Shown piece after piece: positions 1,975 to 51,779 of a DNA stretch of 64,000 nt; position 1 is the first letter of the stretch, and the number at the start of each line of letters is the position of its first letter. The notes below the pieces were generated by a model. It was given only the letters and a program-made list of their open reading frames with translations. It had not been told where the DNA came from and searched no databases. The position numbers were made by a program, and so were the translations under genes. Source of the DNA: Candidatus Sericytochromatia bacterium (GTDB taxonomy: Bacteria > Cyanobacteriota > Sericytochromatia > UBA7694); assembly GCA_964229355.1 (NCBI GenBank), contig CAXRDE010000019.1:389557-453556 (forward strand). Reading direction: 5' to 3'.

Positions 1975-2670
1975 TTATTGGGTTTTGCTCACGCTATACA
2001 AACGCTGGACTTCTTCGGCCGAAAGCACCCGATTGTAAACCCTCACTTCGTCAATATCGCCTTCAAAAAACTTACCTGAAAAAGGGCTTGCTCCCACATA
2101 AAAGTATTCATAGCCCCCACGGGGAGCCAGTTCAGTGTCTTTTTGAATAAGTTGACCGTCCACATAAAAGGTCACTTCATTGGCCATGTTGTCATAGCTT
2201 ACGGTCAGATGTTGCCAGGTATTCTCTTTGACGGGTACCAGCGTTGTGTTGCCTGTATTTTCTGGGTGGGTGCTGCGAACCCAGGCGCTGAGGGTGACCT
2301 GGGGGAGAGCTTCACCATTGAAGTCGCGATCTATGCGAAAGAAGCTGTCGCCGCCATTGAAGTGCCAGGCCTGATCTGGGTTGCCCAGACGATCGGTGGT
2401 TTGGGTTACACCCGTTGCTTGCTCAGTATCTGTGGGCGGAGCTTCTGAAAAACTGAAATATTCAATCAAACCAGCCATCGGAATTTCGGGCTCTGGGCTG
2501 GCAGAGGGATTGCCTGATGGGGCTGTGCTGGAGGCTGTTGTGGGCGACGTTGTGGGATTGGTACTGGGTATGGGAGACGGTACACTGGTGTTGCCAGGTG
2601 AGTTGACATTGACCGTACATGCTGAAAAAGTAAGTGCGACCGTAGTAACCAAAAAAGTAGTTTTTAACAT
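1975..2670 (-). CDS. Lipoprotein with S/T/P-rich linker and C-terminal LamG (Laminin_G_3 / concanavalin-like) domain
   Basis: Signal peptide with Cys (…LTFSAC). Low-complexity PSPIPSTNPTTSPTTASS linker. LamG hallmark FEGDIDEVRVYNRVLSAEEV. Confidence 0.7.
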   Translation of the reverse strand: MLKTTFLVTTVALTFSACTVNVNSPGNTSVPSPIPSTNPTTSPTTASSTAPSGNPSASPEPEIPMAGLIEYFSFSEAPPTDTEQATGVTQTTDRLGNPDQAWHFNGGDSFFRIDRDFNGEALPQVTLSAWVRSTHPENTGNTTLVPVKENTWQHLTVSYDNMANEVTFYVDGQLIQKDTELAPRGGYEYFYVGASPFSGKFFEGDIDEVRVYNRVLSAEEVQRLYSVSKTQ

Positions 2671-2902
2671 GAGTAAACTCCGTTTTCATAAATGTGTAAT
2701 GGGGTTGGAATACTTTGAGAATACCAAATAAAATGCCGTGAAAATGCAGGAGGCCACACTGAAATTGTTAGAAGTCTCACATCCGACGCGAAAAAAACAT
2801 AAGAGAAGTTTAATGTTTATATAACAATTATTAAAGTCTCTTGAATGCCAGGATTTGAACCCTTATGATAAAAATATCTTAAAAAGCGTAGGATGATGAA
2901 AT

Positions 2903-3448
2903 ATGAACTTAAAAGTGAGTGCCCCTCAACAAATTCAAGCTCTGTTTAAAGCTCAGGGCGTGCGTGAACTCAGTGTTCCCCTTGAAGAAGCCGCCAAACA
3001 CACTGAAAATAACAATATGGACGAAGTCTTTTTCTCTTTTGAAGGAAAGGATTACGTGGCCTTTGGAAATCAACTGAAGTTTGATCCCATGAATACCCTG
3101 GAAGCCGTTTCTTTAAGCCGACAGGGCGTGGATATTCTTTACACCCAGGATGAGAGCAACACCATGGGTGAAGGCGCTCGCTCCGCGCTCAATTCCACAC
3201 CGGGTAAAATTGCCAAATATGGTGCGACTGGCCTGGGTGCATTGGCTGGCGCAGGTCTGGCTCTATTTGCAGGGGGCATGGCCAGCCGTCCTCAATTCGT
3301 GGGTATGGGTGCTTTATTGACCACCACGGCCATTGGTGGAGGCATTGGTGCTGCCGTGGGTTATGGCGCGACCGCCACTGTGGGAGCACTCAAAGGCGCC
3401 GTCACTTTTGCTGACACCTCAAGCATTGACGCCATTACAAAAAAATAA
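2903..3448 (+). CDS. Hypothetical protein with C-terminal glycine-zipper (GxxxG) membrane segment
   Basis: Hydrophilic N-terminal ~110 aa, then GATGLGALAGAGLALFAGGMAS…AIGGGIGAAVGYGATATVGAL. RBS-like aggatga upstream. Confidence 0.6.
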   Translation: MNLKVSAPQQIQALFKAQGVRELSVPLEEAAKHTENNNMDEVFFSFEGKDYVAFGNQLKFDPMNTLEAVSLSRQGVDILYTQDESNTMGEGARSALNSTPGKIAKYGATGLGALAGAGLALFAGGMASRPQFVGMGALLTTTAIGGGIGAAVGYGATATVGALKGAVTFADTSSIDAITKK

Positions 3449-35066: not shown

Positions 35067-35798
35067 AAATGCTTGTGCTGCACGAATGAGCGTTTCTGCA
35101 TCTCGTTGTGCATCGCTCTCAGGGTGTTTTTGAAGCACCTCAGCCACAAGGGTCTCCCAGGATTTTTCTCCCAGACATTGCAACAGGCACTCCGCCAGCA
35201 AAGGGCTGATTTTTTCAAGTCTCACGCCTTTAAACTCCTGGAGGAGTAAATAGGGGGTACTCGGATATAAAGGCCATTGTAAAAGGTCTTTCGCTTGCGT
35301 ATGGGGCTGCTGTAAAGCTGACCACACCAAAGGAAAATAAGGTCCCAGATAAACAACTCTGGCCCAGCTGGCCAATTGAGGACCCGCGCAGGCAGGAAAT
35401 ACCTGCGGTAATTGATAAAAACTCAGTGACTTGATGTGGGCTTCATAACGACACAGTTCTGCAAAGTGCAGGGTGCCTGCTTCAGAATAATCCGCCAAAA
35501 AACGCAATAATCTTACCTGTACTTGCTGTGTACTCTCATGGGCGCAGTGCTTATACACATCAAAAAAATCTAACAAAGCGGTATTCAACCGATCGGGCCG
35601 TGCGAGCTTTTTGACGCTGGGCGACAACTGTTGGTAGAAGTACACCAGGGTCTGTTCTTGCATCGATTGACGCATGGGTTGAGCCTCATGCCAGTTTTGC
35701 AAATGGCCCTTTTCGTGTTCAGAGAGAGAACTTGACAGCGTAGACGGATTTGAAAATAGGGCATTGAGCCAGCTGTTTTGGTACTGTTTTAAGCTCAT
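35034..35798 (-). CDS. DUF2063-like protein (MbnC/BufC/TglI-type MNIO partner)
   Basis: 254 aa. N-terminus LKQYQNSWLNALFSNPS, an internal motif TLVYFYQQL (vYrnn-like), C-terminus AFLQAGILL, as remembered for DUF2063. Start abuts the stop of the upstream MNIO-fusion gene. Confidence 0.5.
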   Translation of the reverse strand: MSLKQYQNSWLNALFSNPSTLSSSLSEHEKGHLQNWHEAQPMRQSMQEQTLVYFYQQLSPSVKKLARPDRLNTALLDFFDVYKHCAHESTQQVQVRLLRFLADYSEAGTLHFAELCRYEAHIKSLSFYQLPQVFPACAGPQLASWARVVYLGPYFPLVWSALQQPHTQAKDLLQWPLYPSTPYLLLQEFKGVRLEKISPLLAECLLQCLGEKSWETLVAEVLQKHPESDAQRDAETLIRAAQAFLQAGILLRSS

Positions 35799-37180
35799 CA
35801 GGTGACCTGCTTTATAAACTGTTGGTGTAGGGGCTCGAGTATTTTCAGATCTGCTTCTGAGTGGGGACCTGGTGTGTAACTCAGCATTTGTAGGGGAAAG
35901 CGCTGCAAGATCGTCTGGGCTAACTGGGCAATACGGGGGGTGTGGAGGCGGGTCGGCTTTTCGATATGCAAGGCAACCACATGGGCGGTGGGGAGTTTAT
36001 CGAGATACGCTTCGGGTGTCATGTAAAAGGCGCTGGCATTGACCAGCAAGGTGTCTAAAGACAGAGACAACAGGCATTGGGCTTCTTCGGCAATATGTTT
36101 TAGAAAGGTGGCTTCGTCCATTTCATAGCTTTTGGGTGGCACACGATAGGCCACCGGCTCTAAAATAGGAATCACGCCCAGGTTCTGACGGAGTGTTTTG
36201 AGTTGGCTTTTCACGTGCTCGAGGGCTTCTTCACCGGGTAAGAGGGCATGTAAAAATGGACTCCCATTGTTTTCGGTATAGCGAAAACCCAGTCCCATTT
36301 TAAGCCAATTGGTATTTAAGCGCTGGATAAGACGGTGCAAATGAGAGCGAATATTTTCAGGGGGCGGTGTGGTACTGGCCAGAGATAACTGTTGACTGTA
36401 CATGCCCAAAGGTTTTTTTTGGGATAGGTGCAGCAGAAGACTGTCAAAGCTCAGGGGTTCAAGGTGGGCAGCAGGCAGCTCCAAATAGTCCACCTGGGGG
36501 ATATTAACAATCGTTTGCGGATCCTGGCTCGTGTGGTGCCTCACGGCAAAACCGGCCGGAGTCAGGGGTTGAAAAGGAGATTGCGAGTGGATTTGAAAGG
36601 GTTTTTGCAGAATGCGCTGCTCTACCTGATGCGGCGCCTGGGGATCCAGATTACGCACCTGGGCTTTGCCCTGAAAAGCCCAGAGGGTTTGCCAATCCGC
36701 AAAGCGCTTTGTGAACTCTTCTGGGCTAAAAACCCCCGTGGGGCGTGGCGAGATTTGGTTGCTGGTGCGGGCTAATTTTTCGTGGGCCCAGACGTCTTCG
36801 GGTGAAAGACCTGAAACAATGAAAAAACCACCGGGTTTAAGGGCTGACTTTAAGCGGCCGATAATGCGGGCCCGTTCCCCATTGGGAATAAAGGGAAAGA
36901 CGTTGAGACCCAAAATGAGTCCGTAGGTGTCCCGCTGCATGCGAAACCCGCGAATATCCTGGTGTAACCAGGTAATGTTGGGATGGGGATAGCGCTGCTG
37001 TGCCTCGGTGACACATTGTTGATCCACGTCTAAGGCCGTGACATGAAAGCCGTACTCGGCCAAATGATGGGTTAACTCGCCCCTGCCAAAGCCAATGTCG
37101 CACACATGGAGATGAGGAATCCAGGGCAATAAACGCAAGAGGTCACTCAGGTGCAGTTGTCGGCTCGAGAAGACGCTCAT
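35798..37180 (-). CDS. Fusion of class-I SAM-dependent methyltransferase (N-terminal) with a DUF692 / MNIO-like TIM-barrel domain (C-terminal)
   Basis: MTase motif I VCDIGFGRGELTHHLAEYG with acidic post-I HVTALDVD. C-terminal ~250 aa carry DUF692-like blocks (QVDYLELPAAH, LGMYSQQLSLAS, LLPGEEALEHV…LGVIPILEPVAYR, CLLSLSLDTLLVNASAF, HVVALHIEKP). Several expected metal ligands appear substituted. Confidence 0.6.
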   Translation of the reverse strand: MSVFSSRQLHLSDLLRLLPWIPHLHVCDIGFGRGELTHHLAEYGFHVTALDVDQQCVTEAQQRYPHPNITWLHQDIRGFRMQRDTYGLILGLNVFPFIPNGERARIIGRLKSALKPGGFFIVSGLSPEDVWAHEKLARTSNQISPRPTGVFSPEEFTKRFADWQTLWAFQGKAQVRNLDPQAPHQVEQRILQKPFQIHSQSPFQPLTPAGFAVRHHTSQDPQTIVNIPQVDYLELPAAHLEPLSFDSLLLHLSQKKPLGMYSQQLSLASTTPPPENIRSHLHRLIQRLNTNWLKMGLGFRYTENNGSPFLHALLPGEEALEHVKSQLKTLRQNLGVIPILEPVAYRVPPKSYEMDEATFLKHIAEEAQCLLSLSLDTLLVNASAFYMTPEAYLDKLPTAHVVALHIEKPTRLHTPRIAQLAQTILQRFPLQMLSYTPGPHSEADLKILEPLHQQFIKQVT

Positions 37181-37354: not shown

Positions 37355-38299
37355 TTAGCAATGGTTTCGTAGAAAGCACTCAATAATTTCAAACACCTGA
37401 TCTGGCGGTAAAAAGCTGCGGGAGCCGTTGGGGCGACGCGGTGCGCCACCAATGCTGCTGCCCCCACCCCAACCCGGTTCAATATCGTTGAGATGCTCTA
37501 AAATGGCTGGAATATTAAAGTCTTTGATGAGGTCTGACTGTTTAGCAATGGTGTAAGAAAAAGAACGCTCCACATTGCCATCAGGCCCTGTGACTTCAAT
37601 TTCATGAAAAGAAACCACTTTGGCGTAACCGTCGCGGTATAAAGAGCCGAAGACCCGCTCAGGGCTATGGGTCATGACCCAACCTGAGCCCTCATGGGTG
37701 ATTTCATAGCGGCACCCGCGGTTGCGGGCATACTGTGGAATCGTATAGCGCTTATTGTGAAAGATGAGCTTATCGGTACGTTTGAGACACGCAAAGAGCA
37801 ATTGATAAAGATCCGCTGTGGCATAGGCATTTTCGCGGCGACACCGGCATTCAGGCTCCATGGCCCCTTTAAAAAAGCGCTGGCACAACTCTGAGTCACG
37901 CACGTAGGCAAAGTAAGAGGGGCCGTGAGCGTCTACGTTGGCCACATCCTCCACCAGATTGCGTACCCGCGGGTTATTGATGGCCGACGGATGGCGCAAG
38001 AGCCAGGTGGCGAGCACCGTGTCGGCGTCGATATCGTTTAAATAAACGGTCATATTTCCGGGATCGAGTCCCAGGATCAAGGCGTCCAAGACTTGTGCAC
38101 ACGTTGCTTTTGTCACCAGGCGAATACAGCCCGCATGGTGGTCAAAGCTGTATTTATGCGCTTTGACGTCGATGGCGGGTCCCTGGACATAGCCATCTAA
38201 AGCAATTGATCGAGGAGGCAGCTCCTCAAAGGGCACAATCTTGCCGCGTTTAATGATTATTTTCATGGCAAAGCCCGATGTTTTCTCAGATCTTAGCAT
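37355..38299 (-). CDS. Hypothetical Cys-rich protein (314 aa) ending in a C-terminal Cys
   Basis: No confident family. Contains FDHHAGC and NDIDADTV motifs (order not that of the DHH family). CRCRREN cluster. Gly-rich GWGGGSSIGG. Alternative start at 38266 (MKIIIKRGK). Confidence 0.5.
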   Translation of the reverse strand: MLRSEKTSGFAMKIIIKRGKIVPFEELPPRSIALDGYVQGPAIDVKAHKYSFDHHAGCIRLVTKATCAQVLDALILGLDPGNMTVYLNDIDADTVLATWLLRHPSAINNPRVRNLVEDVANVDAHGPSYFAYVRDSELCQRFFKGAMEPECRCRRENAYATADLYQLLFACLKRTDKLIFHNKRYTIPQYARNRGCRYEITHEGSGWVMTHSPERVFGSLYRDGYAKVVSFHEIEVTGPDGNVERSFSYTIAKQSDLIKDFNIPAILEHLNDIEPGWGGGSSIGGAPRRPNGSRSFLPPDQVFEIIECFLRNHC

Positions 38300-38421
38300 A
38301 AGATGGAAGCTTTTTGCGATTGTTCTCTGGTTACAGACCCAGAATCTTCAGAGATGTTAGACTGAACAGCAATATTTTAACATTGTGTGACGGAGAGTTA
38401 AATTTGAATATTATAGATGTG

Positions 38422-40104
38422 ATGGGCAACATTACTGCCTTCTTATGGGGCCCCTGGACCTTTTTTGTCTTGATGGGCTCGGGTATTTTATTCACCATTT
38501 GGAGTAAATTCGTTCAATTCCGGGCAGTGACCCATGGTATTGAAGTGGTACGCGGGGTGTATGATGATCCCGATGACCCTGGTGCGATCAACCATTTTCA
38601 GGCCCTTTCGGCTGCCCTTTCAGGGACCGTGGGCCTCGGCAATATTGGCGGTGTGGCGATGGCCATCGCCCTCGGTGGACCAGGTTCGCTCTTTTGGATG
38701 TGGGTGGTCGGCTTTTTAGGGATGGCCATTAAAACCGTTGAAGTGACATTGGCTTTGATGTACCGCAATATGGACGATCCCGACAACCCTCACGGGGGAG
38801 CCATGTGGGTTATCGATAAAACCCTGGGCAAATACAACGACTGGCGCAAGGGCCTGGCCCGCGTGCTGGCCGTCTTTTTCTGCTGTACCTTGCTTATTTC
38901 CAGCATGACGGGCGGCAATATGTTTCAGTCCTGGAACGTGGGCGAAATTTTGAATGTGTACTTTGGAGTGCCTCAAATTGCCACCGGAATTGTGCTTGCC
39001 ATTGTGGTGGGCATGGTGATTGTGGGCGGTATTAAGCGCATTGGCGATGTGGCAGGCAAAGTTGTGCCTCTGATGTGTGCCCTTTATGTCTTAGCGGGCT
39101 TAGCGGTATTGGCTGTCAATATTCAGGCCATTCCCTCGATGTTGGCCTTGATTGTTTCGAGCGCCTTTACCCCTGTGGCTGCAGGCGGTGCCTTTGTGGG
39201 GGTGACCATGTATGCCACCTTTGAAATTGGCTTACAGCGTGCGCTGTTTTCCAATGAAGCGGGTCAGGGTTCTGCGCCCATTGCTCACGCGGCGGCGAAA
39301 AGTCATGAAGCCACCCGTGAAGGGGTTGTGGCTGGTTTAGAGCCTCTGATTGATACCATTCTCATTTGTACCCTAACTGCACTGGTGATTTTGTGTACGG
39401 GTACCTGGAATCGCGATGCCATTGGTCAATTAAGTGGTCCTGCAGTGATGGCGCAAAATGCAGAAGGCAAAACAGTTTTGCAAGCCCCCAATCAGGTGTC
39501 AGACTTGCCGGAATTGGCCTCCTGGGAAAAATGGCAGCCCGGTTCTCAAATCTTTATGATGGTTGATGTGCCTGCTGAGGACGGCACCGTTAAGCGAGGC
39601 AAAATCTACGGCACCATCGTCGCGGGAGCCACCGCTGGCAAAGATATGGTGGAGTGGGGAGAGGTTCCCGAAGGTGCTCAGTGGGTGATGGTGGATGGTA
39701 AGCCGGACCAGAGCATTTACCGTAATTTTGTGGGAGCCAGTCTGACGGGCCATGCTTTTGACCGGGCCTTTCCGGGCCTGGGTAAATGGCTGATTACCGT
39801 CGCTGCCGTGCTTTTTGCGGTTTCCACGATGATCTCCTGGAGCTATTATGGTGAACAGGGCGTTATCTTTATCTTTGGAGGTAAAGGCATCCTCATTTAT
39901 AAGGCCATTTTCTTGTTGGGAACCCTGGCCGCGCCAGTGCTGATTACCACCGATAAAGAACTGGGCATTTTGGCGGATTTTGGTACGGGCTGGATGCTCT
40001 GGGCCAATATCCCCATTTTGCTGATTATGGGGCACCTTGCCATTCGTGAGATGAGTGGCTATTTTGCCAAACTGGATCGTGGCGAGTTCACCCGTCAGAA
40101 GTAA
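38422..40104 (+). CDS. Alanine/glycine:cation symporter (AGCS) family transporter
   Basis: ALSGTVGLGNIGGVAMAIALGGPGSLFWMW. The ORF opens at 38314; ATG at 38422 gives the typical N-terminus. Confidence 0.8.
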   Translation: MGNITAFLWGPWTFFVLMGSGILFTIWSKFVQFRAVTHGIEVVRGVYDDPDDPGAINHFQALSAALSGTVGLGNIGGVAMAIALGGPGSLFWMWVVGFLGMAIKTVEVTLALMYRNMDDPDNPHGGAMWVIDKTLGKYNDWRKGLARVLAVFFCCTLLISSMTGGNMFQSWNVGEILNVYFGVPQIATGIVLAIVVGMVIVGGIKRIGDVAGKVVPLMCALYVLAGLAVLAVNIQAIPSMLALIVSSAFTPVAAGGAFVGVTMYATFEIGLQRALFSNEAGQGSAPIAHAAAKSHEATREGVVAGLEPLIDTILICTLTALVILCTGTWNRDAIGQLSGPAVMAQNAEGKTVLQAPNQVSDLPELASWEKWQPGSQIFMMVDVPAEDGTVKRGKIYGTIVAGATAGKDMVEWGEVPEGAQWVMVDGKPDQSIYRNFVGASLTGHAFDRAFPGLGKWLITVAAVLFAVSTMISWSYYGEQGVIFIFGGKGILIYKAIFLLGTLAAPVLITTDKELGILADFGTGWMLWANIPILLIMGHLAIREMSGYFAKLDRGEFTRQK

Positions 40105-40218
40105 ATTCTGTGGGGTGTCATCCTGTCAAAAAAAAGCCCAGATACACAACGGTGTATCTGGGTTTGGCATTTGTGGAAGGAATTCCTTCGTTTAGAACAA
40201 AGTAAAACTATCGTAGGA

Positions 40219-40728
40219 TTAAGCGTCAAAGCCTTCTTGCTTGATTTGTTCTACCCAGGCTTCGACCCGTTGGGGTGTGAGATCTTCTTCATTGTCATTG
40301 TCCAGAGCCAGTCCCACAAAAAAGTCCTCGTCCAGTAAGCCTTTGGACTCCATAAAGTCATAGTCATCGGTGGGCCAGTGTCCCACCACGGTGGCACCCT
40401 GGGCAATAAATTTTTCATAGAGCATGCCAATGGCGTCTAAAAAAGTATAGGGGTAGCCTTGCTGATCTCCCAGGCCAAAGAGCGCGATGGTTTGGGTGCT
40501 CAGGTCTAAAGTGTCAATGTCTTCATAGACATCGTACCAGTCGCCCTGGAGCTCGCCGTCGTTCCAGGTGGGAATACCAATAATGAGATGGCTATAAGCT
40601 GTCAGCTCTTCGGCTTTAATATTCCGCACGTCCAGCAGGGTGGCTTCAGGAAAGTATTCGGCGATATTTTTGGCAACGTGTTCTGTGTTGCCGGTGTCAG
40701 AGCCGTAAAGAATGGCGAGTTTTTTCAT
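40219..40728 (-). CDS. Flavodoxin (long-chain)
   Basis: MKKLAILYGSDTGNTEHVAK N-terminal FMN loop. The ORF extends to 40818, but the ATG at 40728 gives the canonical start. Confidence 0.8.
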   Translation of the reverse strand: MKKLAILYGSDTGNTEHVAKNIAEYFPEATLLDVRNIKAEELTAYSHLIIGIPTWNDGELQGDWYDVYEDIDTLDLSTQTIALFGLGDQQGYPYTFLDAIGMLYEKFIAQGATVVGHWPTDDYDFMESKGLLDEDFFVGLALDNDNEEDLTPQRVEAWVEQIKQEGFDA

Positions 40729-40736
40729 AAGTATAG

Positions 40737-41078
40737 CTAACCTTGTGTATGTTTGACAGCGGGCTGAGAAAAGCTGTTCTCTAGCGTTTCTCGCATGATT
40801 TCGATTTGCACGCGGCATAGCAAGTCAATTAAGTCTTCGAGCTCTCGTTCGTTAAAAATCAAAGAGATATCGGCAAATTTGAATTGCACTTCGCTCTGCT
40901 TTTCGCCCACAATTTTGCGTTGTTGTAGATCTTCTAAGAAAACCACAAAACTTTTAAGTTGGGTACTTTTAAAAGGCAGTAAAGCGCAGGCGCAGCGCAG
41001 TTTGATATGTTCACAGTCCTTACACCAACAGGCGCTGTAGAAGCGGCTTTCGAAATGGACACAGCGACAGTCAGACAT
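40737..41078 (-). CDS. Small Cys-rich protein (CxC…CxCxxC…CxC), hypothetical, upstream of flavodoxin
   Basis: AAGGAG RBS 10 nt before the ATG at 41078. N-terminal MSDCRCVHFESRFYSACWCKDCEHIKLRCAC. Stop lies 9 nt before the flavodoxin start. Confidence 0.5.
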   Translation of the reverse strand: MSDCRCVHFESRFYSACWCKDCEHIKLRCACALLPFKSTQLKSFVVFLEDLQQRKIVGEKQSEVQFKFADISLIFNERELEDLIDLLCRVQIEIMRETLENSFSQPAVKHTQG

Positions 41079-41099
41079 TGCCCAGGGCTCCTTTAATAA

Positions 41100-41528
41100 A
41101 AAGATTTGATCATTCGATTTAGACACATCTTAAAAATGTTTCTGTAGTTTGTCAACGTAAAATGCTTTAATTACGTTGGTTAGTTATTTTCCGTTTTGTA
41201 TTGAAAAACAATTTATAAAAGTTTAAATAGGTCTATAATCTTGTTTTTGGAATAAATAAAAATGAGAGGCAAAAAAAATATTTTTTTAAATGTTTTTTTA
41301 TTGAAAATCTTTGATCTTAAAAAAAAAAGCGTGTATTATATTTTCTCATTAAAAAATTAGCTGATATAAGAAGGTTATGGAGGTTTTTTACGTTGGTTTA
41401 TAAATTTATTTGGAAAATGGAATTAATTTATGAACGTAAATGTTGTTTTTCTCGCGAAATATTCATTGACAAGACTTCCCTGCATTGTTTAGGATTAAAT
41501 TAATCAAATCCTATAAGAAGGTTAAATT
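41100..41528. promoter_or_regulatory. ~430-bp AT-rich divergent control region between the Cys-rich/flavodoxin operon and feoABC
   Basis: Very low GC compared with flanks. Two copies of inverted-repeat arms TTACGTT / AACGTAA (about 41150-41180 and 41388-41440). TTGACA hexamer at 41466-41471 upstream of feoA. Confidence 0.5.
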
Positions 41529-41837
41529 ATGCCGGTGTCATCTCCCCTGTTCTTTTCGCCCGAGTCCCTGTCTATGGCACAGCCTTCTGAGGCTCTACCT
41601 GTGATTAAGCGCTCTCAACCCATTGCGCAGTTTGAGGGCGGTGCGCGCGTTAAAATCACTGAAATTAAAGGGGATGAGCAATTGTGCCACCGCTTATTGA
41701 GTATGGGTATTTTTCCGGGGCGTGAAGTGCATATTTTACGCAAACAGGGTACATCACTTATGTTGCGTCACGGACACATGTGCCTTGGCGTTCGCCTGGC
41801 GCCTTCTTTTGTGATTGAGGCTGAGGCGATTGCTTAA
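41529..41837 (+). CDS. feoA: Ferrous iron transport protein A
   Basis: SH3-like FeoA core (VKITEIKGDEQLCHRLLSMGIFPGREVHILRKQG). Confidence 0.75.
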   Translation: MPVSSPLFFSPESLSMAQPSEALPVIKRSQPIAQFEGGARVKITEIKGDEQLCHRLLSMGIFPGREVHILRKQGTSLMLRHGHMCLGVRLAPSFVIEAEAIA

Positions 41838-41843
41838 GATGCC

Positions 41844-43808
41844 ATGTCTGCTGTGAGTTCTGATCCCCATACGTTAACCATCGCTTTTGCAGGAAACCCC
41901 AATGTCGGAAAAACAGCCCTGATCAATGCCGTGAGCCAAAGTCGTCTGAAAGTGGGCAACTGGCCTGGCGTCACCGTCGAAAAAAAAGAAGCCCGTTATG
42001 TTCAGGGACAGCATCAGTTTCATTTGATTGATTTGCCTGGCACCTACAGCCTGGTGCCCCATAGTATTGAAGAGCGGGTCTGTCGTGACTATCTGAATGA
42101 AACTCCTCCGGACCTGTTGATCAATGTGGTCGATGCCAGCAATCTCGAAAAAAGCCTTTCTCTAACCCTTGAGCTCCTGGAACAACGCATCCCCATGGTG
42201 CTGTTGCTAAATATGTGGGATGAGTTTGAAATCCGCGAAGAACGCCTGGATGTGGAGCGTCTTGCAGCGACCCTGGGTATTCCGGTCCTGGCGACTTCTG
42301 CAGTGACAGGCCAGGGCATTGAGGACTTAAAAAAACTGTTAGCAGAGCAAACCCAGCGGCTCACCCCGCTCCCCGTCCTGCCCGATATTCCAGAAGATAC
42401 TTCTCAGCGCTACGCATTGATTCAACGCTGGGCCCATGCGGTCATGACGCGACCGGATCAGATGAAACCCAGTATGACAGAACGCGTGGATCAGGTGCTC
42501 CTCAATGAGTGGAGTGGCATTCCCATTTTTCTGGCGCTGCTGTTTTTGGTGTTTAAACTGACCTTTGATGTGTCTACCCCCTTTGTCGATTGGATTGATG
42601 GCTTCTTTAACGGCTTTTTAGGTCGTTGGGCTGAACTGGCGTTGGGGGCTTTGTCGGTGCCTGACATTGTGATTTCTCTGGTGAAAGACGGTATGATTGG
42701 TGGCGTGGGCCTGGTGCTCACCTTTGTGCCCATTCTCATGTTTTTGTACTTATTTCTGGCCTTACTCGAAGAGAGTGGCTATATGGCCAGAGCTGCCTTT
42801 TTAATGGATCGCTTTATGCACCGTTTTGGTTTACACGGCAAAGCGTTTGTGCCTTTGCTCGTGGGCTTTGGTTGCAACGTACCCGGTGTCTATGCCACCC
42901 GTGCCCTGGATAGCGAAACCGACCGCAAAATTACCGTGGCGGTGATGTCTTTTATGTCCTGTGGGGCCAAACTTCCTATTTACGCCCTGTTTACGGCGGT
43001 GTTTTTTCAGCGTTACCAGGCCTTTGTGATTTTGGCCATGTACGTGCTGGGTGTTTCTGTCGCTATCTTTTGGGCGGTGTTGCTGCGTAAAACCCGTTTT
43101 AAAGGCGAAATTCCGGTATTTATGATGGAGTTGCCGCCCTATCGCTTTCCACAATGGAAAGCCCTGTGGGGCTCCATTTGGAGCAAAACCCGCTCTTTTA
43201 TAAGACAAGCGGGTACGGTGATTGCGGTGAGTATGGTCCTGTTATGGGCCCTTGTCAATTTGCCCTACGGTAATCCCCCTGAAAAAACCGTCCTGGGCTA
43301 TAGCGCCCGCGCCGCGGCTCCGCTGTTTTTGCCTCAGGGTTTTGGTCAGCGCTGGGAGCCTGTGGCCGCGATTTTACCCGGTTTTATGGCCAAAGAAATG
43401 GTGGTAGGTACCCTCGGGGTGGTACTCAGTGTGCAGCAAGAAGAAGCCTCCACTGAAAAACCCGCTTTCTGGTCAGAGTTGGGTGCCCAACTGGTGGGCC
43501 TCAAAGATGCGGCTGTGGCGGCTGTGGCCACCGTTTTTTCAGGCTTGACGCCTGCGCCCCTTGCCATGGATGATTCCGCCAATACCTCAAGTCTTACGGC
43601 TGCCGTACGCAATACCTTTACGCCGCTTACGGCTTTTGCGTACATGGTTTTTAATCTTTTTCTGATTTCGTGTATTTCGGTGGTGGGGGCCATGACCGCT
43701 GAATTTGGTGGGCGGTACTTTGGTTTTGTGTTTTGTATTACCAGCGGTACCGCTTATGTGCTTTCAGCCCTCGTTTATCAAGTGGGACTTGTGTTAGGAT
43801 TTCAGTGA
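41844..43808 (+). CDS. feoB: Ferrous iron transport protein B
   Basis: N-terminal G-domain GNPNVGKT and DLPG, followed by polytopic membrane domain with two Gate motifs. Confidence 0.9.
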   Translation: MSAVSSDPHTLTIAFAGNPNVGKTALINAVSQSRLKVGNWPGVTVEKKEARYVQGQHQFHLIDLPGTYSLVPHSIEERVCRDYLNETPPDLLINVVDASNLEKSLSLTLELLEQRIPMVLLLNMWDEFEIREERLDVERLAATLGIPVLATSAVTGQGIEDLKKLLAEQTQRLTPLPVLPDIPEDTSQRYALIQRWAHAVMTRPDQMKPSMTERVDQVLLNEWSGIPIFLALLFLVFKLTFDVSTPFVDWIDGFFNGFLGRWAELALGALSVPDIVISLVKDGMIGGVGLVLTFVPILMFLYLFLALLEESGYMARAAFLMDRFMHRFGLHGKAFVPLLVGFGCNVPGVYATRALDSETDRKITVAVMSFMSCGAKLPIYALFTAVFFQRYQAFVILAMYVLGVSVAIFWAVLLRKTRFKGEIPVFMMELPPYRFPQWKALWGSIWSKTRSFIRQAGTVIAVSMVLLWALVNLPYGNPPEKTVLGYSARAAAPLFLPQGFGQRWEPVAAILPGFMAKEMVVGTLGVVLSVQQEEASTEKPAFWSELGAQLVGLKDAAVAAVATVFSGLTPAPLAMDDSANTSSLTAAVRNTFTPLTAFAYMVFNLFLISCISVVGAMTAEFGGRYFGFVFCITSGTAYVLSALVYQVGLVLGFQ

Positions 43809-43821
43809 GGAGAGTGTCATT

Positions 43822-44010
43822 ATGATGGAAAATCTCTTTGTGAGTGGTGTCCTGATGGTGTCAGGCCTGTTTATTATTCAGCGTTTGCGCACGGTGATCG
43901 GCCACGGTGCTCGCCGTGAGTCCGCCTGCGGAAGTTGTGCCAGTGGCACCTGTAGCAGCAAAAGTTTAAATCCTGCTGAAACCGAGCTTCCGATGGCGGG
44001 TTCTCTCTAG
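43822..44010 (+). CDS. FeoB-associated Cys-rich small membrane protein
   Basis: Single TM helix followed by CGSCASGTC, immediately after feoB. Confidence 0.55.
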   Translation: MMENLFVSGVLMVSGLFIIQRLRTVIGHGARRESACGSCASGTCSSKSLNPAETELPMAGSL

Positions 44011-46153: not shown

Positions 46154-48604
46154 CTATTTCGCTGGGGTAAAACGCAACTGTCCCATGCGGTCAAGACGGT
46201 GAATACCACCATAGGTAAATGACCAGCAGTGAAAATCGGCGATTTCCTGTGGACGACGGCGACAAAAGTTACCACGCCAGTTTTTATCTCCGGCTTTAAT
46301 GCCCAGAGATTGGAAGGGAATGGCCATTTCCACGATCCAGCCATGGGAAAATTGACGGGCCGCACTCTGCCAGGGGCGATTCCAGCTCTGGTCAAAGGAC
46401 GCCCGCTGATAACGCACATTGGCGGGGTTCACCACAAAATAATAGTAGCTGGAACCTTTGCCTTCGGGATCTAAAAACAATTGTACGGTGTCATCGGTAT
46501 TCAAAAAGGAACTGTCCTGACGGTACGAAATATTGACCCGATCGTTCCGGGGCTCGTCATTGACATAGGCCACATAGAGGGCATTGTCATCGTAGGTGAT
46601 ACGCACTTCTGTACTGGTGTTGGCACGGGCGGAGCCAGTGTTCCAGAAAAACTGCGGTAATCGGTAAGCCTGTTGCCAGAGGGGTTCGTCGATGCGCGCG
46701 TCGATACTCGGCGCGGAACGGGTATAGGGAATCTCCATACTGGGCAGGGGACGGGCTTCAGGCAACACCTTACTGGGGGGGTTGGTGGGGGGAACGTAGC
46801 CGGGCTTACTGATGGCTTGCTGGTAATTGCGGGACAGCTTAACCAGATCCCTATAGTGTTGCACAATGCGCGGTTTAAGCTCTGCGGGAAAAGTCAGGGT
46901 GCCTTCTTGAATGCCTTTGTGTTCGGCCTGTATATTGGCCACCAGGCTGCTTGCTGAAGCGCGCAGGGGTTTCTCTGCCAGGGTGGCGTTGAGAGACTTT
47001 AAGCGCGCAGAGGCGTCGCGCAATACCTGTTGGTTGGCTTTACTCAGCGCTTGCGTGCTGGCGCCTTTTTCGGCCATGTCGTTGAGCCACTGGCGCAAAA
47101 ATTGAACCTGGGTCAGCAGGGCTTTGGGCAGATCGTGGTGAGGGACCACGGCTTTTTGCTTAAAAGGACCGACCTGTAAGGCCTTTAACATATTGCCTGT
47201 GAGTTGACTGCTGGCAAAAATAGACATACCGTTGGCGTTGCGTTGCCGTAGCATATGGATCTGATTGAGCATTTCCAGGCTGTTTTGCCCCAGTTTGTGG
47301 GCGCCAATAATCGGGTAAATCACGTCGTGACGCTGCTCTTGATCCGTCTCCCACTCCATCCAGAGATCCAGGTCTCTAAAGTCACTGGTGTACATCATGG
47401 GAGAAATGTAATTGATCCAGTGGTTATTGCCCCAGTGTCGCCAGTGTTGCATTTTGGTGTTGCGGGCCTGAATTTCGTTGCGAAAAACGGCTCCACCCAA
47501 ATCCAGGGGTCTTTTTTGATTGCTCAAGAGCAAGCGCAGGTCTTTGACCATGCTGTGCACCTGTTCTTCGCGCCACAAATGCCACTGGGCTTGTAAGTCG
47601 CTGTCGGGTGCAATGCGGGGCGACGGAAAGGATCCCACCTTGCGGAAGTAATCCAGTTGAAAGCGGGTTAGGCTTAATTCGTCTTCTACCTGGTTATTGC
47701 CGTAGCGAATATAGTCCATCAAAAAGCCCTGAATGGGGTACTTGCTGGCGGTTTGATTCATCAGACCCGCGAGCAGCTCTCGCCACTCGTGCGAAGCGGG
47801 GCTCATAAAAGAGGTGGACTCGTCTTCAATTTCACTGTTCGTGCTGCGGTAAGCGCGGCCGTCTAGTGGATCCGCCATTAAGGCAGGCAAGCGCCGGGTC
47901 AAGGGGTTTTGTTTGGCAATGGTGGGCGATAACACGCGGAACATCCAAAACCAGGGATATACTTCTAATCCCTCTGCCTGGGCGGCATCGGTAACGAGCT
48001 TTAACATGTCCATATTTGGGGGTAATTCGGGGTCAAGGGCCACAGTGGGGTTCGGAAACAGCGCATAACCCCGGCGAAAAATTTCGGGGTAGACAGCGTT
48101 AAAACCGGCCTCTTTAAAGCGCTTCATTAGACGGCGCATGGCTTCGGCATTTTTGGGCAGCATGCCTGCATCAAGCAAGGCGCCGCGCAATTCCACCCGA
48201 CGGGTGGGCAACATCTGAATCTGGGCATGGATCAAGTCAAAATAGGTGCGCTGTAAAAGCTCTTTTTGCTCGTCATTATCGAGGAAATTGCTGATTTTTT
48301 TACGGTCTTCACCGGCGCTGATTTTCTTGCGGATGTCTTCAATGCGCTGCAAGTTGCTGCTAACAAGGTTAAGCCGCTGACGAATCTCATCATCAGGTAC
48401 ATCGGGGTCTAATCTTAGCACTTGCCATTGGCCTTCTACCTGACGGTAAAGGCTGCGTAGCGCTTCGGTGGTCTCTTGCTGATCATTGGGCAGGGTCATG
48501 AATTGAGAGGGTATGCTCTCGGGAATTGCTGCTGAAAGGGGAGCGCTGAAACTGCTCCAGAGCAGACAGGCCATAATGCCGCAAAAATATGAACGTAACG
48601 CCAT
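46154..48604 (-). CDS. Secreted glycoside-hydrolase-like family 10 (GHL10) protein with C-terminal CBM9-like domain
   Basis: Signal peptide. GFNAVYPEIFRRGYALFP core typical of GHL10. C-terminal DARIDEPLWQQAYRL…ITYDDNALYVAYV resembles CBM9. Confidence 0.55.
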   Translation of the reverse strand: MALRSYFCGIMACLLWSSFSAPLSAAIPESIPSQFMTLPNDQQETTEALRSLYRQVEGQWQVLRLDPDVPDDEIRQRLNLVSSNLQRIEDIRKKISAGEDRKKISNFLDNDEQKELLQRTYFDLIHAQIQMLPTRRVELRGALLDAGMLPKNAEAMRRLMKRFKEAGFNAVYPEIFRRGYALFPNPTVALDPELPPNMDMLKLVTDAAQAEGLEVYPWFWMFRVLSPTIAKQNPLTRRLPALMADPLDGRAYRSTNSEIEDESTSFMSPASHEWRELLAGLMNQTASKYPIQGFLMDYIRYGNNQVEDELSLTRFQLDYFRKVGSFPSPRIAPDSDLQAQWHLWREEQVHSMVKDLRLLLSNQKRPLDLGGAVFRNEIQARNTKMQHWRHWGNNHWINYISPMMYTSDFRDLDLWMEWETDQEQRHDVIYPIIGAHKLGQNSLEMLNQIHMLRQRNANGMSIFASSQLTGNMLKALQVGPFKQKAVVPHHDLPKALLTQVQFLRQWLNDMAEKGASTQALSKANQQVLRDASARLKSLNATLAEKPLRASASSLVANIQAEHKGIQEGTLTFPAELKPRIVQHYRDLVKLSRNYQQAISKPGYVPPTNPPSKVLPEARPLPSMEIPYTRSAPSIDARIDEPLWQQAYRLPQFFWNTGSARANTSTEVRITYDDNALYVAYVNDEPRNDRVNISYRQDSSFLNTDDTVQLFLDPEGKGSSYYYFVVNPANVRYQRASFDQSWNRPWQSAARQFSHGWIVEMAIPFQSLGIKAGDKNWRGNFCRRRPQEIADFHCWSFTYGGIHRLDRMGQLRFTPAK

Positions 48605-50642: not shown

Positions 50643-51779
50643 TCATTCAATAGCCTCGGCTTGTGTTGCAGATGCTTTAAAGATTTCGGGGGAGAGTTGA
50701 ATGCGGTGAAGTGTCTTTGTGGGGCTGTCGATGATGTAGAGATGTCCATCACCCCCTTCAGCAAGGCCAGCGGGTTTGATTTGGGAAGAGAGCCCTTGCC
50801 AGCAGCCTGTTTCAGGAGAGGTCCAGGTGGGAATACCATAGCCTTGAAAAAGTACTTGATAGCGTGGGCTATAGTTTAAATTCCATATACCAATGGGATT
50901 GCTCTTTTCGATAAAAGATTTCTTACCTCGTTGTGCAACGGAAGGTAGAGACGAGATTTCTCCAGAAGTGAGGTTAACGCTAAATATTTCTCTCCATCCG
51001 TCATCACTTCCTATAAACATCTGTTTAGGATCAAAGGTAATACTTGAGGGGACAGTCATAACAGTATTCTTTATGGTATTTAAACTTCTTTCGGCAAATT
51101 GTTTGCGGTTAGAATAGATGTCAAATTTTTCTATATTGGCATGGTAGTTTAATTCAAACAATTTGGGTGTGAGGTCGTGGGTGTAATAAAAAATTCTTGA
51201 ACTATCAGGGCTACTGAAAAAAAGTTTTTGTTGTGGACTAAATTGTAGTGAGTTGTAGCGAGAGATACTTAAATGACCAACTCCCTCAATATCTTGTTCA
51301 AGCTTTGTCCAGGTTTTATTGGTGTTGTGGTATTGAAAGAGTTGATCTGTTTCATCATCACCAAGATAAAGATTTTCTTGTTTGTCCACTGCACAAATGA
51401 TTAACTTTTTAAAATCGGGTGAGTTTTCAAAAACTTTTTGTGCTCGCTGCGTGTTGATGTCAAAATGAAACACCTCCGTATCGGTGAGTAAATATAAGTC
51501 ACCAGTAGCCGGACTGCTACACATCGCGTGCAGCGCTTGCGGTGCGTTGCTGATTTTTTCGACGGGTAATTCGAGGTTTTGCGGGGTGAGGTGAAAGTCA
51601 GGACAAGGGTTGTCAGGGTTCTCGATATCTTGAGGAGGTTCTGCTTCAAGTGTGGGGGTAATTTCGGAAGTGGGTTGTGCAGAAGGCTGGTCTTCAGAAG
51701 GCGCTATAGATGCCGTGGTACAGGCCCATAAGAGCAATGAACAGCCCAGACTGAGCAAAGAAAAAATTTTCATAAACAA
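50643..51779 (-). CDS. Secreted/lipoprotein beta-propeller repeat protein, hypothetical
   Basis: Signal with LGCS/LWAC Cys. Repeated ~45-aa beta-propeller-like blades. Confidence 0.5.
   Translation of the reverse strand: MFMKIFSLLSLGCSLLLWACTTASIAPSEDQPSAQPTSEITPTLEAEPPQDIENPDNPCPDFHLTPQNLELPVEKISNAPQALHAMCSSPATGDLYLLTDTEVFHFDINTQRAQKVFENSPDFKKLIICAVDKQENLYLGDDETDQLFQYHNTNKTWTKLEQDIEGVGHLSISRYNSLQFSPQQKLFFSSPDSSRIFYYTHDLTPKLFELNYHANIEKFDIYSNRKQFAERSLNTIKNTVMTVPSSITFDPKQMFIGSDDGWREIFSVNLTSGEISSLPSVAQRGKKSFIEKSNPIGIWNLNYSPRYQVLFQGYGIPTWTSPETGCWQGLSSQIKPAGLAEGGDGHLYIIDSPTKTLHRIQLSPEIFKASATQAEAIE

What the first reader, a model, noticed from the sequence alone, without database searches (positions are those of the whole stretch)
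40737..41528. Divergent iron-type control region: Cys-rich protein-flavodoxin operon facing feoABC across a ~430-bp AT-rich spacer with paired TTACGTT/AACGTAA inverted repeats
The intergenic region is far more AT-rich than anything else in the window. It contains two copies of inverted-repeat arms TTACGTT…AACGTAA (around 41150-41180 and 41388-41440) plus a TTGACA hexamer 57 nt upstream of feoA. Flavodoxin and FeoAB are classic iron-limitation genes, so this is probably a shared metalloregulator operator (Fur or other). The unusual partner is an uncharacterised 113-aa protein with a CxC…CxCxxC…CxC cluster transcribed ahead of flavodoxin. It could be a metal sensor, chaperone or regulator.
Basis: partly seen in the sequence, partly recalled or inferred. 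Interest (0 to 1): 0.5.

Follow-up and report, generated by a model that had tools for sequence, protein, structure and literature searches.

The report
Conserved feoAB control region, DUF6686 partner
In an uncultured sister group of the cyanobacteria, the ferrous-iron transporter genes feoAB always face a small cysteine-bearing protein of unknown function across a long AT-rich spacer that carries a conserved, previously undescribed DNA box in front of both promoters. This points to a lineage-specific way of controlling iron uptake, not to the classical Fur switch.

Summary
The 450-nt spacer (41079-41528) has 24.7% GC against 51% for the window. It carries four copies of AACGTAA/TTACGTT (0.09 expected; 0 of 5000 shuffles reach four). 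The 113-aa ORF has the stated cysteine pattern.

Comparative data change the picture. The ORF is a divergent member of Pfam DUF6686, a tiny family (about 19 clusters among 5.8 billion proteins). The only named sources are Candidatus Sericytochromatia. In every relative with upstream DNA, down to 21% identity, the gene sits divergently from feoA-feoB across a 446-559 nt AT-rich spacer. The downstream gene varies: flavodoxin, a symporter, aconitase or a MoCF-domain gene.

AACGTA is the most enriched hexamer across seven non-alignable spacers. An oriented box, TTAWTNAACGTAAWTAAA, lies 20-21 or 32 nt upstream of each conserved TTGACA -35. The paired-arm architecture itself is not conserved. No Fur, PerR, Zur, DtxR, FNR or IscR consensus match exceeds shuffles.

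AlphaFold models (pLDDT 92 and 82) give a PUR/PC4-like fold with an invariant CxxC.

Best reading (about 0.4): DUF6686 is the local, Cys-dependent regulator that binds these boxes. Near-equal rival: an unlinked factor binds them and DUF6686 is a co-regulated Feo accessory protein.

The parts
40219..40728 (-). Long-chain flavodoxin, second gene of the DUF6686 operon in this sub-clade only.
   Evidence: Pfam Flavodoxin_1, E = 3.5e-24. TIGR01752 flav_long, 207 bits against a cutoff of 147. The ATG at 40728 lies 8 nt after the DUF6686 stop codon. The gene is absent from this position in L003, L007, L011, L012, L015, L018 and L019.
40737..41078 (-). 113-aa Cys-rich protein, a divergent DUF6686 (PF20391) member with a predicted PUR/PC4-like fold and an invariant CxxC (C19, C22).
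41127..41155 (-). Sigma-70-type promoter of the DUF6686 operon: -35 TTGACA at 41155-41150 and -10 TAAGAT at 41132-41127.
   Evidence: Promoter scan, 10 of 12 matches. TTGACA(A) and a TAnnnT -10 are conserved in all 12 lineages.
41153..41160 (+). CAACGTAA arm overlapping the DUF6686 -35. It is specific to this strain's clade and is not conserved.
   Evidence: Alignment A2: the other lineages have ACATC, TGCTA or TACTA at this position.
41165..41183 (-). Box S3, CTAACCAACGTAATTAAAG. It is oriented toward the DUF6686 promoter, with ACG 21 nt upstream of the -35 (about -55 from the inferred start).
   Evidence: The ACGTAAnTAAAnnATT core is invariant in A2. The box is present in all 12 lineages at 20-21 or 32 nt from the -35. 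PWM score 23.3, the best hit in the window.
41184..41387 (.). Central AT-rich filler. Its sequence is not conserved, but its AT content and approximate length are.
   Evidence: A2 shows no conservation here. Spacers measure 446-462 or 517-559 nt with GC 0.21-0.33, against 0.44-0.55 for the longer loci. There is no 10-11 nt A-tract phasing and no Rfam hit.
41388..41395 (-). Box S2 core (TTACGTTG on the plus strand), about 45 nt upstream of S1 and inverted relative to it. It is partly conserved.
   Evidence: Equivalent sites that were not used for training score 12.5-19.3 in L003, L010, L012, L015 and L018 at the same position.
41427..41445 (+). Box S1, TTTATGAACGTAAATGTTG. It is oriented toward the feoA promoter, with ACG 32 nt upstream of the -35 (about -67 from the inferred start).
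   Evidence: Conserved at 31-32 nt in the window, L003, L004, L008, L009, L010 and L011; degenerate in L012, L015 and L018. PWM score 19.2, the second best hit in the window.
41466..41495 (+). Sigma-70-type promoter of feoAB: -35 TTGACA at 41466-41471 and -10 TAGGAT at 41490-41495.
   Evidence: Promoter scan, 10 of 12 matches. The -35 is conserved in 10 of 11 lineages.
41493..41505 (.). 6-1-6 palindrome GATTAAATTAATC across the feoA -10 and +1. It is a possible second, repressor-type operator, conserved only in the close clade.
   Evidence: Read from A2: GATTAAnTTAATC, GATTAAcCTAATC and GATTGAcTTAATC. It does not match the Fur 7-1-7 consensus above chance in the window (9 of 14).
41529..43808 (+). 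feoA (41529-41837) and feoB (41844-43808).
   Evidence: Pfam FeoA E = 2.5e-8. FeoB_N E = 3.6e-57, plus Gate and FeoB_C.
43822..44010 (+). 62-aa peptide after feoB with an N-terminal hydrophobic helix and a CxSCxSxTC motif. It is not FeoC.
   Evidence: 47% identical in L003. No Pfam or NCBIfam match.

Best explanation
The spacer is a conserved bidirectional control region of Candidatus Sericytochromatia. Two sigma-70-type promoters sit at its outer ends. One drives feoAB; the other drives an operon headed by a DUF6686 protein, which in this genome also includes flavodoxin.

Each promoter is preceded by an oriented copy of a box, TTAWTNAACGTAAWTAAA. The ACG core lies 20-21 nt upstream of the DUF6686 -35 (32 nt in one lineage) and 31-32 nt upstream of the feoA -35. 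A third, inverted copy lies about 45 nt further from feoA.

Those steps are shown. The following steps are inferred. The box is bound by the DUF6686 protein itself, a small PUR/PC4-like nucleic-acid-binding fold. Its invariant CxxC, together with clade-specific extra Cys or His residues, holds a metal or Fe-S centre that reports iron or redox state. From its upstream, face-of-helix-conserved position, the protein modulates RNA polymerase at both promoters. This autoregulates its own operon and co-regulates ferrous-iron uptake and, in this genome, the iron-sparing flavodoxin. The upstream position favours an activator-type or co-regulator-type action over promoter occlusion.
For: Gene linkage. 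The DUF6686 gene is divergent from feoA-feoB in every lineage that has upstream DNA, from 100% down to 21% protein identity. Downstream genes vary, and the gene is never co-directional with feoAB.

The box is a real element. AACGTA occurs in 7 of 7 non-alignable spacers (1.15 expected; 0 of 300 shuffles), on a par with TTGACA. There are four heptamer copies in this spacer against 0.09 expected.

Geometry. Orientation toward each promoter is fixed. Offsets of 20-21 and 31-32 nt differ by about one helical turn.

The box looks local. In the 64-kb window only the two spacer sites score high (23.3 and 19.2); the next best is 12.2, inside a gene. In about 55 kb of relatives' loci, every hit above 14 lies in a spacer, including sites not used for training.

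Cysteines. The CxxC is invariant in 20 members, and additional Cys or His residues sit at different positions in each clade.
Against: - No DNA-binding assay or expression data exist.
- The family is acidic (pI 4.8-6.7 in 19 of 20 members, 7.8 in one).
- Apart from the CxxC, the most conserved residues lie in helix 2 (E93, R96, L99, E100, F103). They do not lie on the beta-sheet that binds nucleic acid in PC4-like proteins.
- All loci were found through DUF6686. The box therefore cannot be shown to follow the protein and not feoAB.
- Locality was tested on only about 2% of a genome.
- PUR-type proteins prefer single strands and purine-rich repeats, not an ACGT-core box.
Confidence: 0.4

Rival explanations
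1. The boxes are bound by an unlinked transcription factor, for example an iron- or redox-responsive regulator encoded elsewhere. DUF6686 is not a regulator. It is a co-regulated, Cys-ligated accessory of ferrous-iron uptake or handling, functionally analogous to FeoC or to an iron or Fe-S chaperone, and it acts on FeoAB or its cargo through protein-protein contacts.
For: The same box precedes both promoters, as expected for co-regulated genes. The protein is acidic, and its best conserved surface is an amphipathic helix (E..R..LE..F) together with the CxxC. That pattern suits protein or metal binding more than duplex DNA binding. The operon partners are cofactor-related: flavodoxin in this genome and a MoCF-domain protein in others. 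Some FeoC proteins are small Cys-rich Fe-S binders of unresolved function that bind FeoB (bioRxiv 10.1101/2022.02.26.482101). No classical DNA-binding domain is found.
Against: The gene is never in the feoAB operon or co-directional with it in 12 lineages, which is unusual for a transporter accessory. The fold class is predominantly nucleic-acid binding (PMC7549692). No candidate regulator gene is conserved nearby; the response regulators near L011 and L012 are not conserved. The box was not seen elsewhere in about 120 kb examined.
Confidence: 0.38
2. The spacer is a Fur (or Zur or PerR) operator region. A Fur-family repressor nucleates on the AT-rich DNA and represses feoAB and the flavodoxin operon when iron is replete.
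For: feoAB and flavodoxin are classical Fur targets in other bacteria (general knowledge). The spacer is extremely AT-rich. A TGATTAAnnTAATCA-like palindrome spans the feoA -10 and +1 in the close clade. In L003 this palindrome matches the 19-bp Fur box at 14 of 19, with 0.01 of shuffles as good.
Against: In the window the best Fur matches are 12 of 19 and 9 of 14, no better than shuffles. The same holds for L010, L011, L012, L015 and L018, and for PerR and Zur. The only element conserved across all lineages, the AACGTAA box, is unlike any Fur-family 7-1-7 site. It occurs as single oriented copies upstream of the -35 with variable partner spacing. No Fur homologue lies in the window, which is weak evidence.
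Confidence: 0.08
3. DUF6686 acts after transcription. Like BpuR, the PUR-like protein binds RNA (its own leader or the feoA leader). The DNA boxes belong to a different factor.
For: The fold is PUR-like, and BpuR autoregulates translation by binding its own mRNA (PMC6736767). The feoA leader and ribosome-binding region are strongly conserved in the close clade. In the L016/L017/L020 lineage the DUF6686 leader is long and carries a hairpin followed by a U7 run.
Against: The leaders are not conserved across clades. The L017 leader as a whole folds no better than shuffles (z = 0). No Rfam element is present.
Confidence: 0.08

Closest known systems
FeoC (PF09012), the third Feo protein of gammaproteobacteria
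   Same: It is a small soluble protein genetically tied to feoAB. Some members carry Cys clusters that bind an O2-labile [4Fe-4S] centre. It has been suspected, but not proven, to regulate Feo (bioRxiv 10.1101/2022.02.26.482101).
   Different: FeoC is a winged-helix protein encoded downstream in the feoABC operon. The protein here has a bbbb-a-bb-a PUR-like fold, is always transcribed divergently, and has no FeoC Pfam match.
PUR/PC4-like (Whirly-type) nucleic-acid-binding domains, including Borrelia BpuR
   Different: The second repeat has only two strands. There is no detectable sequence similarity. An invariant CxxC is present, which PUR proteins do not have. The candidate target has an ACGT core in AT-rich duplex DNA, not purine-rich single strands. 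The protein is acidic.
Cyanobacterial structural-genomics proteins 2it9 (Prochlorococcus NATL2A) and 2nvn (Synechococcus PCC 7942), function unknown
   Different: Sequence identity is 5-8%. There is no profile match. No feoAB link is known for them, and their function is also unknown.
Fur-controlled feo and flavodoxin (isiB, fldA) promoters
   Same: The genes under common control are the same, and the likely physiological signal is iron supply.
   Different: There is no Fur-box match above chance in the window. The conserved element lies upstream of the -35 hexamers and does not cover the promoter.
Divergent local regulator and transporter loci (LysR-, MerR- and ArsR-type arrangements)
   Same: A small gene faces its target operon. 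Conserved sites lie in the shared spacer, and there is a site near -65 of the target promoter.
   Different: No HTH or other known DNA-binding domain is present. The spacer is unusually long, about 450 nt, of which some 200 nt are non-conserved AT-rich filler.

Membership tests
DUF6686 (PF20391) | Score at or above the Pfam gathering cutoff of 23.9 bits | tested here: inconclusive
   The window protein scores 21.4 bits (E = 2.6e-4), just under the cutoff. Homologues reached by its own profile, P0009-P0014, score 24.5-39.8 bits and pass. P0015-P0022 carry a precomputed PF20391 annotation.
DUF6686 (PF20391) | Full-length alignment with shared invariant residues | tested here: met
   The 20-sequence alignment A4 shows M1, C19, C22, R96 and L99 invariant, and L34, L48, F75, E79, E93 and F103 at 90% or more.
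FeoC (PF09012) | Winged-helix fold or FeoC profile match | tested here: not met
   Neither the 113-aa protein nor the 62-aa peptide has a FeoC hit at E <= 0.1. The predicted fold is bbbb-a-bb-a.
FeoC (PF09012) | Encoded downstream of feoB in the same operon | tested here: not met
   The DUF6686 gene is divergent in all lineages.
PUR / PC4-like domain | b-b-b-b-a repeat pair forming one domain | tested here: inconclusive
PUR / PC4-like domain | Sequence or profile similarity to PurA, Whirly or PC4 families | tested here: not met
   No such Pfam hit. No PDB sequence hit apart from short helical matches.
PUR / PC4-like domain | Binds single-stranded DNA or RNA through the beta-sheet face | not testable with these tools
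   This needs EMSA or fluorescence anisotropy with purified protein.
Fur-family operator | 19-bp Fur box or 7-1-7 inverted repeat better than chance | tested here: not met
   The window gives 12 of 19 and 9 of 14, and 0.81-1.0 of shuffles do as well. Five of the six other lineages are also negative.
Fur-family operator | Operator overlaps the -35, -10 or +1 of the regulated promoter | tested here: not met
   The conserved boxes lie 20-32 nt upstream of the -35 hexamers. Only a clade-specific palindrome overlaps the feoA -10.
Long-chain flavodoxin (TIGR01752) | Score above the curated cutoff | tested here: met
   207.2 bits against a cutoff of 146.75.

The most novel reading that the evidence does not exclude
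DUF6686 is a new class of bacterial transcription factor. A PUR/PC4-like fold carries a Cys-ligated metal or Fe-S sensor. It binds oriented AACGTAA boxes upstream of two divergent promoters and switches on ferrous-iron uptake, and in some lineages flavodoxin, in response to iron or redox state. It would be a Fur-independent, lineage-specific iron switch in the non-photosynthetic sister group of cyanobacteria.
Probability: 0.3. Interest if true: 0.75.

Novelty: new variant of a known kind. Interest (0 to 1): 0.55.

Why it matters
Regulation of Feo is understood almost only through Fur, FNR and ArcA in proteobacteria, and the role of the small Cys-rich FeoC is still unresolved. This locus offers three things:
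- a strict gene-neighbourhood rule that gives a function context to a Pfam DUF (DUF6686 with feoAB);
- a defined, testable 19-nt cis-element with fixed promoter geometry;
- a candidate sensor with a fold not previously linked to metal sensing.

Sericytochromatia are the closest non-photosynthetic relatives of cyanobacteria, so their iron economy bears on how iron demand was managed before oxygenic photosynthesis. The practical value is limited because the lineage is known mainly from metagenomes and the family is tiny.

Tried and rejected
- **Rfam.** A scan of 40000-42500 at E <= 1 found nothing.
- **Classical operators.** Scans for Fur, PerR, Zur, DtxR, FNR and IscR consensus sequences in seven lineages gave nothing above dinucleotide shuffles, apart from two isolated hits in L003.
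- **DNA curvature or looping.** AA/TT periodicity at 10-11 nt in the central spacer does not differ from shuffles in 11 lineages. S1-S3 distances (258-324 nt) keep no helical phase (derived from the coordinates).
- **The 13-nt exact repeat TATAAGAAGGTTA (41365 and 41512) with a possible 8-codon leader ORF.** It is not conserved even in the near-identical strain L002 and was dropped.
- **RpaB HLR1-like and LysR T-N11-A readings of the box.** Compared by eye only. The second HLR1 repeat is absent and T-N11-A is too loose to test, so neither was adopted.
- **The extra AACGTAA at 48592 and the PWM hit at 56332.** The hit at 56332 lies inside an ORF. The copy at 48592 appears to lie in coding sequence by eye. 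Both are treated as chance.
- **Sequence search of PDB with the family profile.** Only short helical matches were found.
- **afdb50 fold search.** The library was unavailable.
- **Literature.** A search for 'DUF6686' returned no papers. The one paper that mentions both Sericytochromatia and FeoB is unrelated.
- **Paralogues and Fur in the window.** No DUF6686 paralogue or Fur homologue was found.

Full report
**1. What is in the window**

The region contains these features:
- long-chain flavodoxin, 40219-40728, minus strand
- a 113-aa Cys-rich ORF, 40737-41078, minus strand
- a 450-nt spacer, 41079-41528
- feoA, 41529-41837, plus strand
- feoB, 41844-43808, plus strand
- a 62-aa ORF, 43822-44010, plus strand

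The spacer has 24.7% GC against 51.1% for the window. It contains the lowest 300-nt GC value in the window, 0.21; the next lowest regions reach 0.32-0.33.

AACGTAA/TTACGTT occurs five times in 64 kb, and four of those copies lie in the spacer, at 41154, 41171, 41388 and 41433. Dinucleotide shuffles of the spacer give 0.09 copies on average and never more than two in 5000 trials. Four of the nine CpGs in the spacer lie in this heptamer.

TTGACA at 41466 lies 57 nt before the feoA ATG and pairs with TAGGAT at 18 nt. On the other strand, TTGACA (41155-41150) pairs with TAAGAT at 17 nt upstream of the Cys-rich ORF. The one exception is that the third feo gene is not FeoC (no Pfam or NCBIfam match).

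**2. The Cys-rich protein belongs to a very small family that is always next to feoAB**

A word-indexed search of 5.8 billion proteins found six relatives. An exhaustive profile search of 1.84 billion cluster representatives found eight. A second profile search found 19 clusters.

The window protein scores just below the Pfam DUF6686 cutoff (21.4 against 23.9 bits), but the distant relatives P0009-P0014 pass it. The only organism names attached to the family are Candidatus Sericytochromatia. No paper in the library mentions DUF6686.

Gene context was retrieved for 12 lineages:
- window/L001/L002
- L003
- L004/L005
- L008
- L009/L007
- L006
- L010
- L011
- L012-L014
- L015
- L016/L017/L019-L021
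- L018

Wherever upstream DNA exists, the gene is transcribed divergently from feoA-feoB. The spacer measures 446-462 nt in the closer clades and 517-559 nt in the more distant clade.

The downstream neighbour is not conserved:
- flavodoxin in the window, L004 and L005, and probably L006
- a Na:Ala symporter on the opposite strand in L003 and L011
- aconitase in L012
- a MoCF-domain gene in L015, L016, L018 and L019, overlapping the DUF6686 stop codon in L015 and L018

The conserved unit is therefore DUF6686 facing feoAB. It is not the 'Cys-rich protein-flavodoxin operon' of the finding.

**3. The spacer compared across lineages**

Every spacer is AT-rich (GC 0.21-0.33), while the longer loci have GC 0.44-0.55. 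The close lineages can be aligned (A2). That alignment shows four things:
- The ends of the spacer are conserved: both -35 hexamers, both -10 hexamers, and the feoA leader with its ribosome-binding site.
- An ACGTAAnTAAAnnATT block lies upstream of the DUF6686 -35.
- A TTTACGTT block lies upstream of the feoA -35.
- The middle, roughly 200 nt, is not conserved.

An unbiased word count was run over seven lineages whose spacers cannot be aligned. AACGTA/TACGTT ranked first: it is present in 7 of 7 against 1.15 expected, and 0 of 300 shuffles matched this. That puts it level with TTGACA.

Anchoring on the -35 hexamers gives the geometry:
- On the DUF6686 side, the A of ACG lies 20-21 nt upstream of TTGACA in ten lineages and 32 nt upstream in the L016/L017/L020 lineage.
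- On the feoA side it lies 31-32 nt upstream.
- In both cases the box reads 5'-AACGTAA-3' toward the promoter it precedes.
- The two offset classes differ by about one helical turn.
- A third copy lies about 45 nt further from feoA, in inverted orientation. It is recognisable in most lineages.

A 19-nt matrix (TTAWTNAACGTAAWTAAA) was built from 19 promoter-proximal sites. In the window it scores 23.3 at 41165 (minus strand) and 19.2 at 41427 (plus strand). The next best hit in 128 kb of scanned strand scores 12.2 and lies inside a gene. In about 55 kb of relatives' loci, every hit above 14 falls in a spacer. These include sites not used for training in L003, L010, L011, L015 and L018.

The arm that overlaps the DUF6686 -35 in the window (41153-41160) is not conserved. 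Partner-arm spacing differs among lineages:
- 0 nt in L015, where ACGTAATTACGT is a perfect palindrome, and nearly so in L018
- 10 nt in the window
- about 46 nt on the feoA side

'Paired inverted repeats' is therefore not the conserved architecture. Single oriented boxes at fixed promoter offsets are.

**4. It does not look like a Fur operator**

Consensus scans were run in seven lineages for the 19-bp Fur box, the Fur, PerR and Zur 7-1-7 motifs, and the DtxR/IdeR, FNR and IscR type 1 motifs. With two exceptions, none exceeded dinucleotide shuffles. Both exceptions are in L003 and lie on the palindrome at the feoA -10: Fur at 14 of 19 and DtxR at 13 of 19, each with 0.01 of shuffles as good. 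Neither repeats in any other lineage.

The window's best Fur matches are 12 of 19 and 9 of 14. The test has low power in AT-rich DNA, and the consensus sequences come from other phyla. Even so, the only element conserved in all lineages is unlike a Fur-family site and lies upstream of the -35 hexamers, not over them.

A 6-1-6 palindrome, GATTAAATTAATC (41493-41505), spans the feoA -10 and +1 in the close clade. It could be a separate repressor-type operator. This remains untested.

**5. The protein**

AlphaFold2 with the 12-sequence alignment gives pLDDT 91.9 and pTM 0.82, with topology b1-b4, helix, b5-b6, helix. A second model was built for a member only 21% identical (P0017). It gives the same topology at pLDDT 82.2.

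This is the PC4-like/PUR fold, a b-b-b-b-a repeat class that mostly binds single-stranded DNA or RNA (PMC7549692). Borrelia BpuR is a bacterial example that acts as a transcriptional co-repressor and translational autoregulator (PMC3764826, PMC6736767). Here the second repeat keeps only two strands.

Across 20 family members, only M1, C19, C22, R96 and L99 are invariant. Each clade has its own additional Cys or His residues near the CxxC:
- C4, C6, C17, C29 and C31 in the window clade
- a CxCC motif, often preceded by His, in the P0012-P0022 clade
- a Cys on strand b6 in P0009-P0011

This pattern was read from the alignment and the Cys positions. A fixed CxxC with moving extra ligands fits a metal or cluster site, possibly one shared between subunits. 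That is an inference.

The proteins are acidic: pI is 4.8-6.7 in 19 of the 20 members and 7.8 in one. That, together with conservation concentrated in helix 2, argues against a classical duplex-DNA binder.

**6. Mechanism**

These points are shown:
- Two conserved promoters sit at the ends of the spacer.
- Three conserved boxes keep a fixed orientation and a fixed helical face relative to those promoters.
- DUF6686 is strictly linked to feoAB.
- Flavodoxin has been recruited into the box-controlled operon in this sub-clade.

These points are inferred:
- One factor binds the boxes and co-regulates both transcription units.
- The signal is iron or redox supply. The basis is that the controlled genes are Fe(II) uptake and an iron-sparing electron carrier.
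- The factor acts from upstream, in activator or co-regulator fashion, and does not occlude the promoter.

The identity of the factor is open. I favour DUF6686 itself (about 0.4) for four reasons: it is never co-directional with feoAB, its own promoter carries the best box, its fold class binds nucleic acids, and the box was not seen elsewhere in the DNA available.

The near-equal rival (about 0.38) is an unlinked regulator, with DUF6686 as a Cys-ligated Feo accessory or iron-handling protein. The rival draws support from the acidic character of the family and its helix-centred conservation. Fur control (about 0.08) and an RNA-level role (about 0.08) are less likely.

The reason for the long, AT-rich, length-conserved but sequence-free middle of the spacer remains unexplained. 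No A-tract phasing was found, nor any Rfam element, and the S1-S3 distance keeps no helical phase.

**7. Novelty**

The family exists in Pfam only as a DUF. No literature was found on it, on its link to feoAB or on the box. The locus is a new variant of a known kind, a divergent control region for an iron transporter. If the protein proves to be the sensor-regulator, it would be a new class of metal-responsive factor.

Noticed in passing
window 35798-37180 (-): A 460-aa protein fuses an N-terminal SAM methyltransferase to an MNIO (MbnB/TglH/ChrH-type) domain. NCBIfam gives sub-threshold matches to RiPP maturases such as BufB and HvfB. A 254-aa ORF with no Pfam hit follows it in L001. This may be a RiPP-type peptide-modification locus.
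   Followed up: no
window 37355-38299 (-) and 38314-40104 (+): A 314-aa protein with no Pfam or NCBIfam hit is paired divergently with a Na:alanine symporter. The same pair flanks the DUF6686 gene in L003 and L011, so synteny is conserved beyond the feo locus.
   Followed up: partly
window 43822-44010 (+): A 62-aa ORF directly after feoB has an N-terminal hydrophobic helix and a CxSCxSxTC motif. It is 47% identical in L003. By recollection it resembles the 'FeoB-associated Cys-rich membrane protein' type, but it has no Pfam or NCBIfam hit.
   Followed up: partly
L016 150-265, L017 85-199, L020 445-559: In the most distant DUF6686 lineage, the gene's leader is about 105 nt long. It contains a GC-rich hairpin (GUGGAGCCCGCUGAAGCAGGCUUCAC) followed by U7, just before the ribosome-binding site. 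This looks like a terminator and could be an attenuator. The leader as a whole folds no better than shuffles.
   Followed up: partly
window 41365-41377 and 41512-41524: The exact 13-nt repeat TATAAGAAGGTTA occurs twice. The second copy is the feoA ribosome-binding region. The first is followed by ATG and an 8-codon ORF. The repeat is not conserved in the near-identical strain L002.
   Followed up: yes
window 2580-3090 and 50838-51499: These are the two other low-GC stretches of the window (minimum 0.32-0.33). The second lies mostly within a 378-aa minus-strand ORF (50643-51779).
   Followed up: no
window 48735 onward (+): An ORF starting MSHSILVVEDDPDLGLLLKLELE looks by eye like an OmpR-type response regulator. 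It lies about 7 kb from the feo locus. Response regulators also lie near feoB in L011 and near aconitase in L012, but they are not conserved across lineages.
   Followed up: no
L015 4360-5502, L018 5371-6492, L016 691-1872, L019 5417-6604: In the distant clade, DUF6686 is followed by a 373-395-aa MoCF_biosynth-domain protein. In L015 and L018 this gene overlaps the DUF6686 stop codon. It is a different operon partner from the flavodoxin seen in the window.
   Followed up: partly
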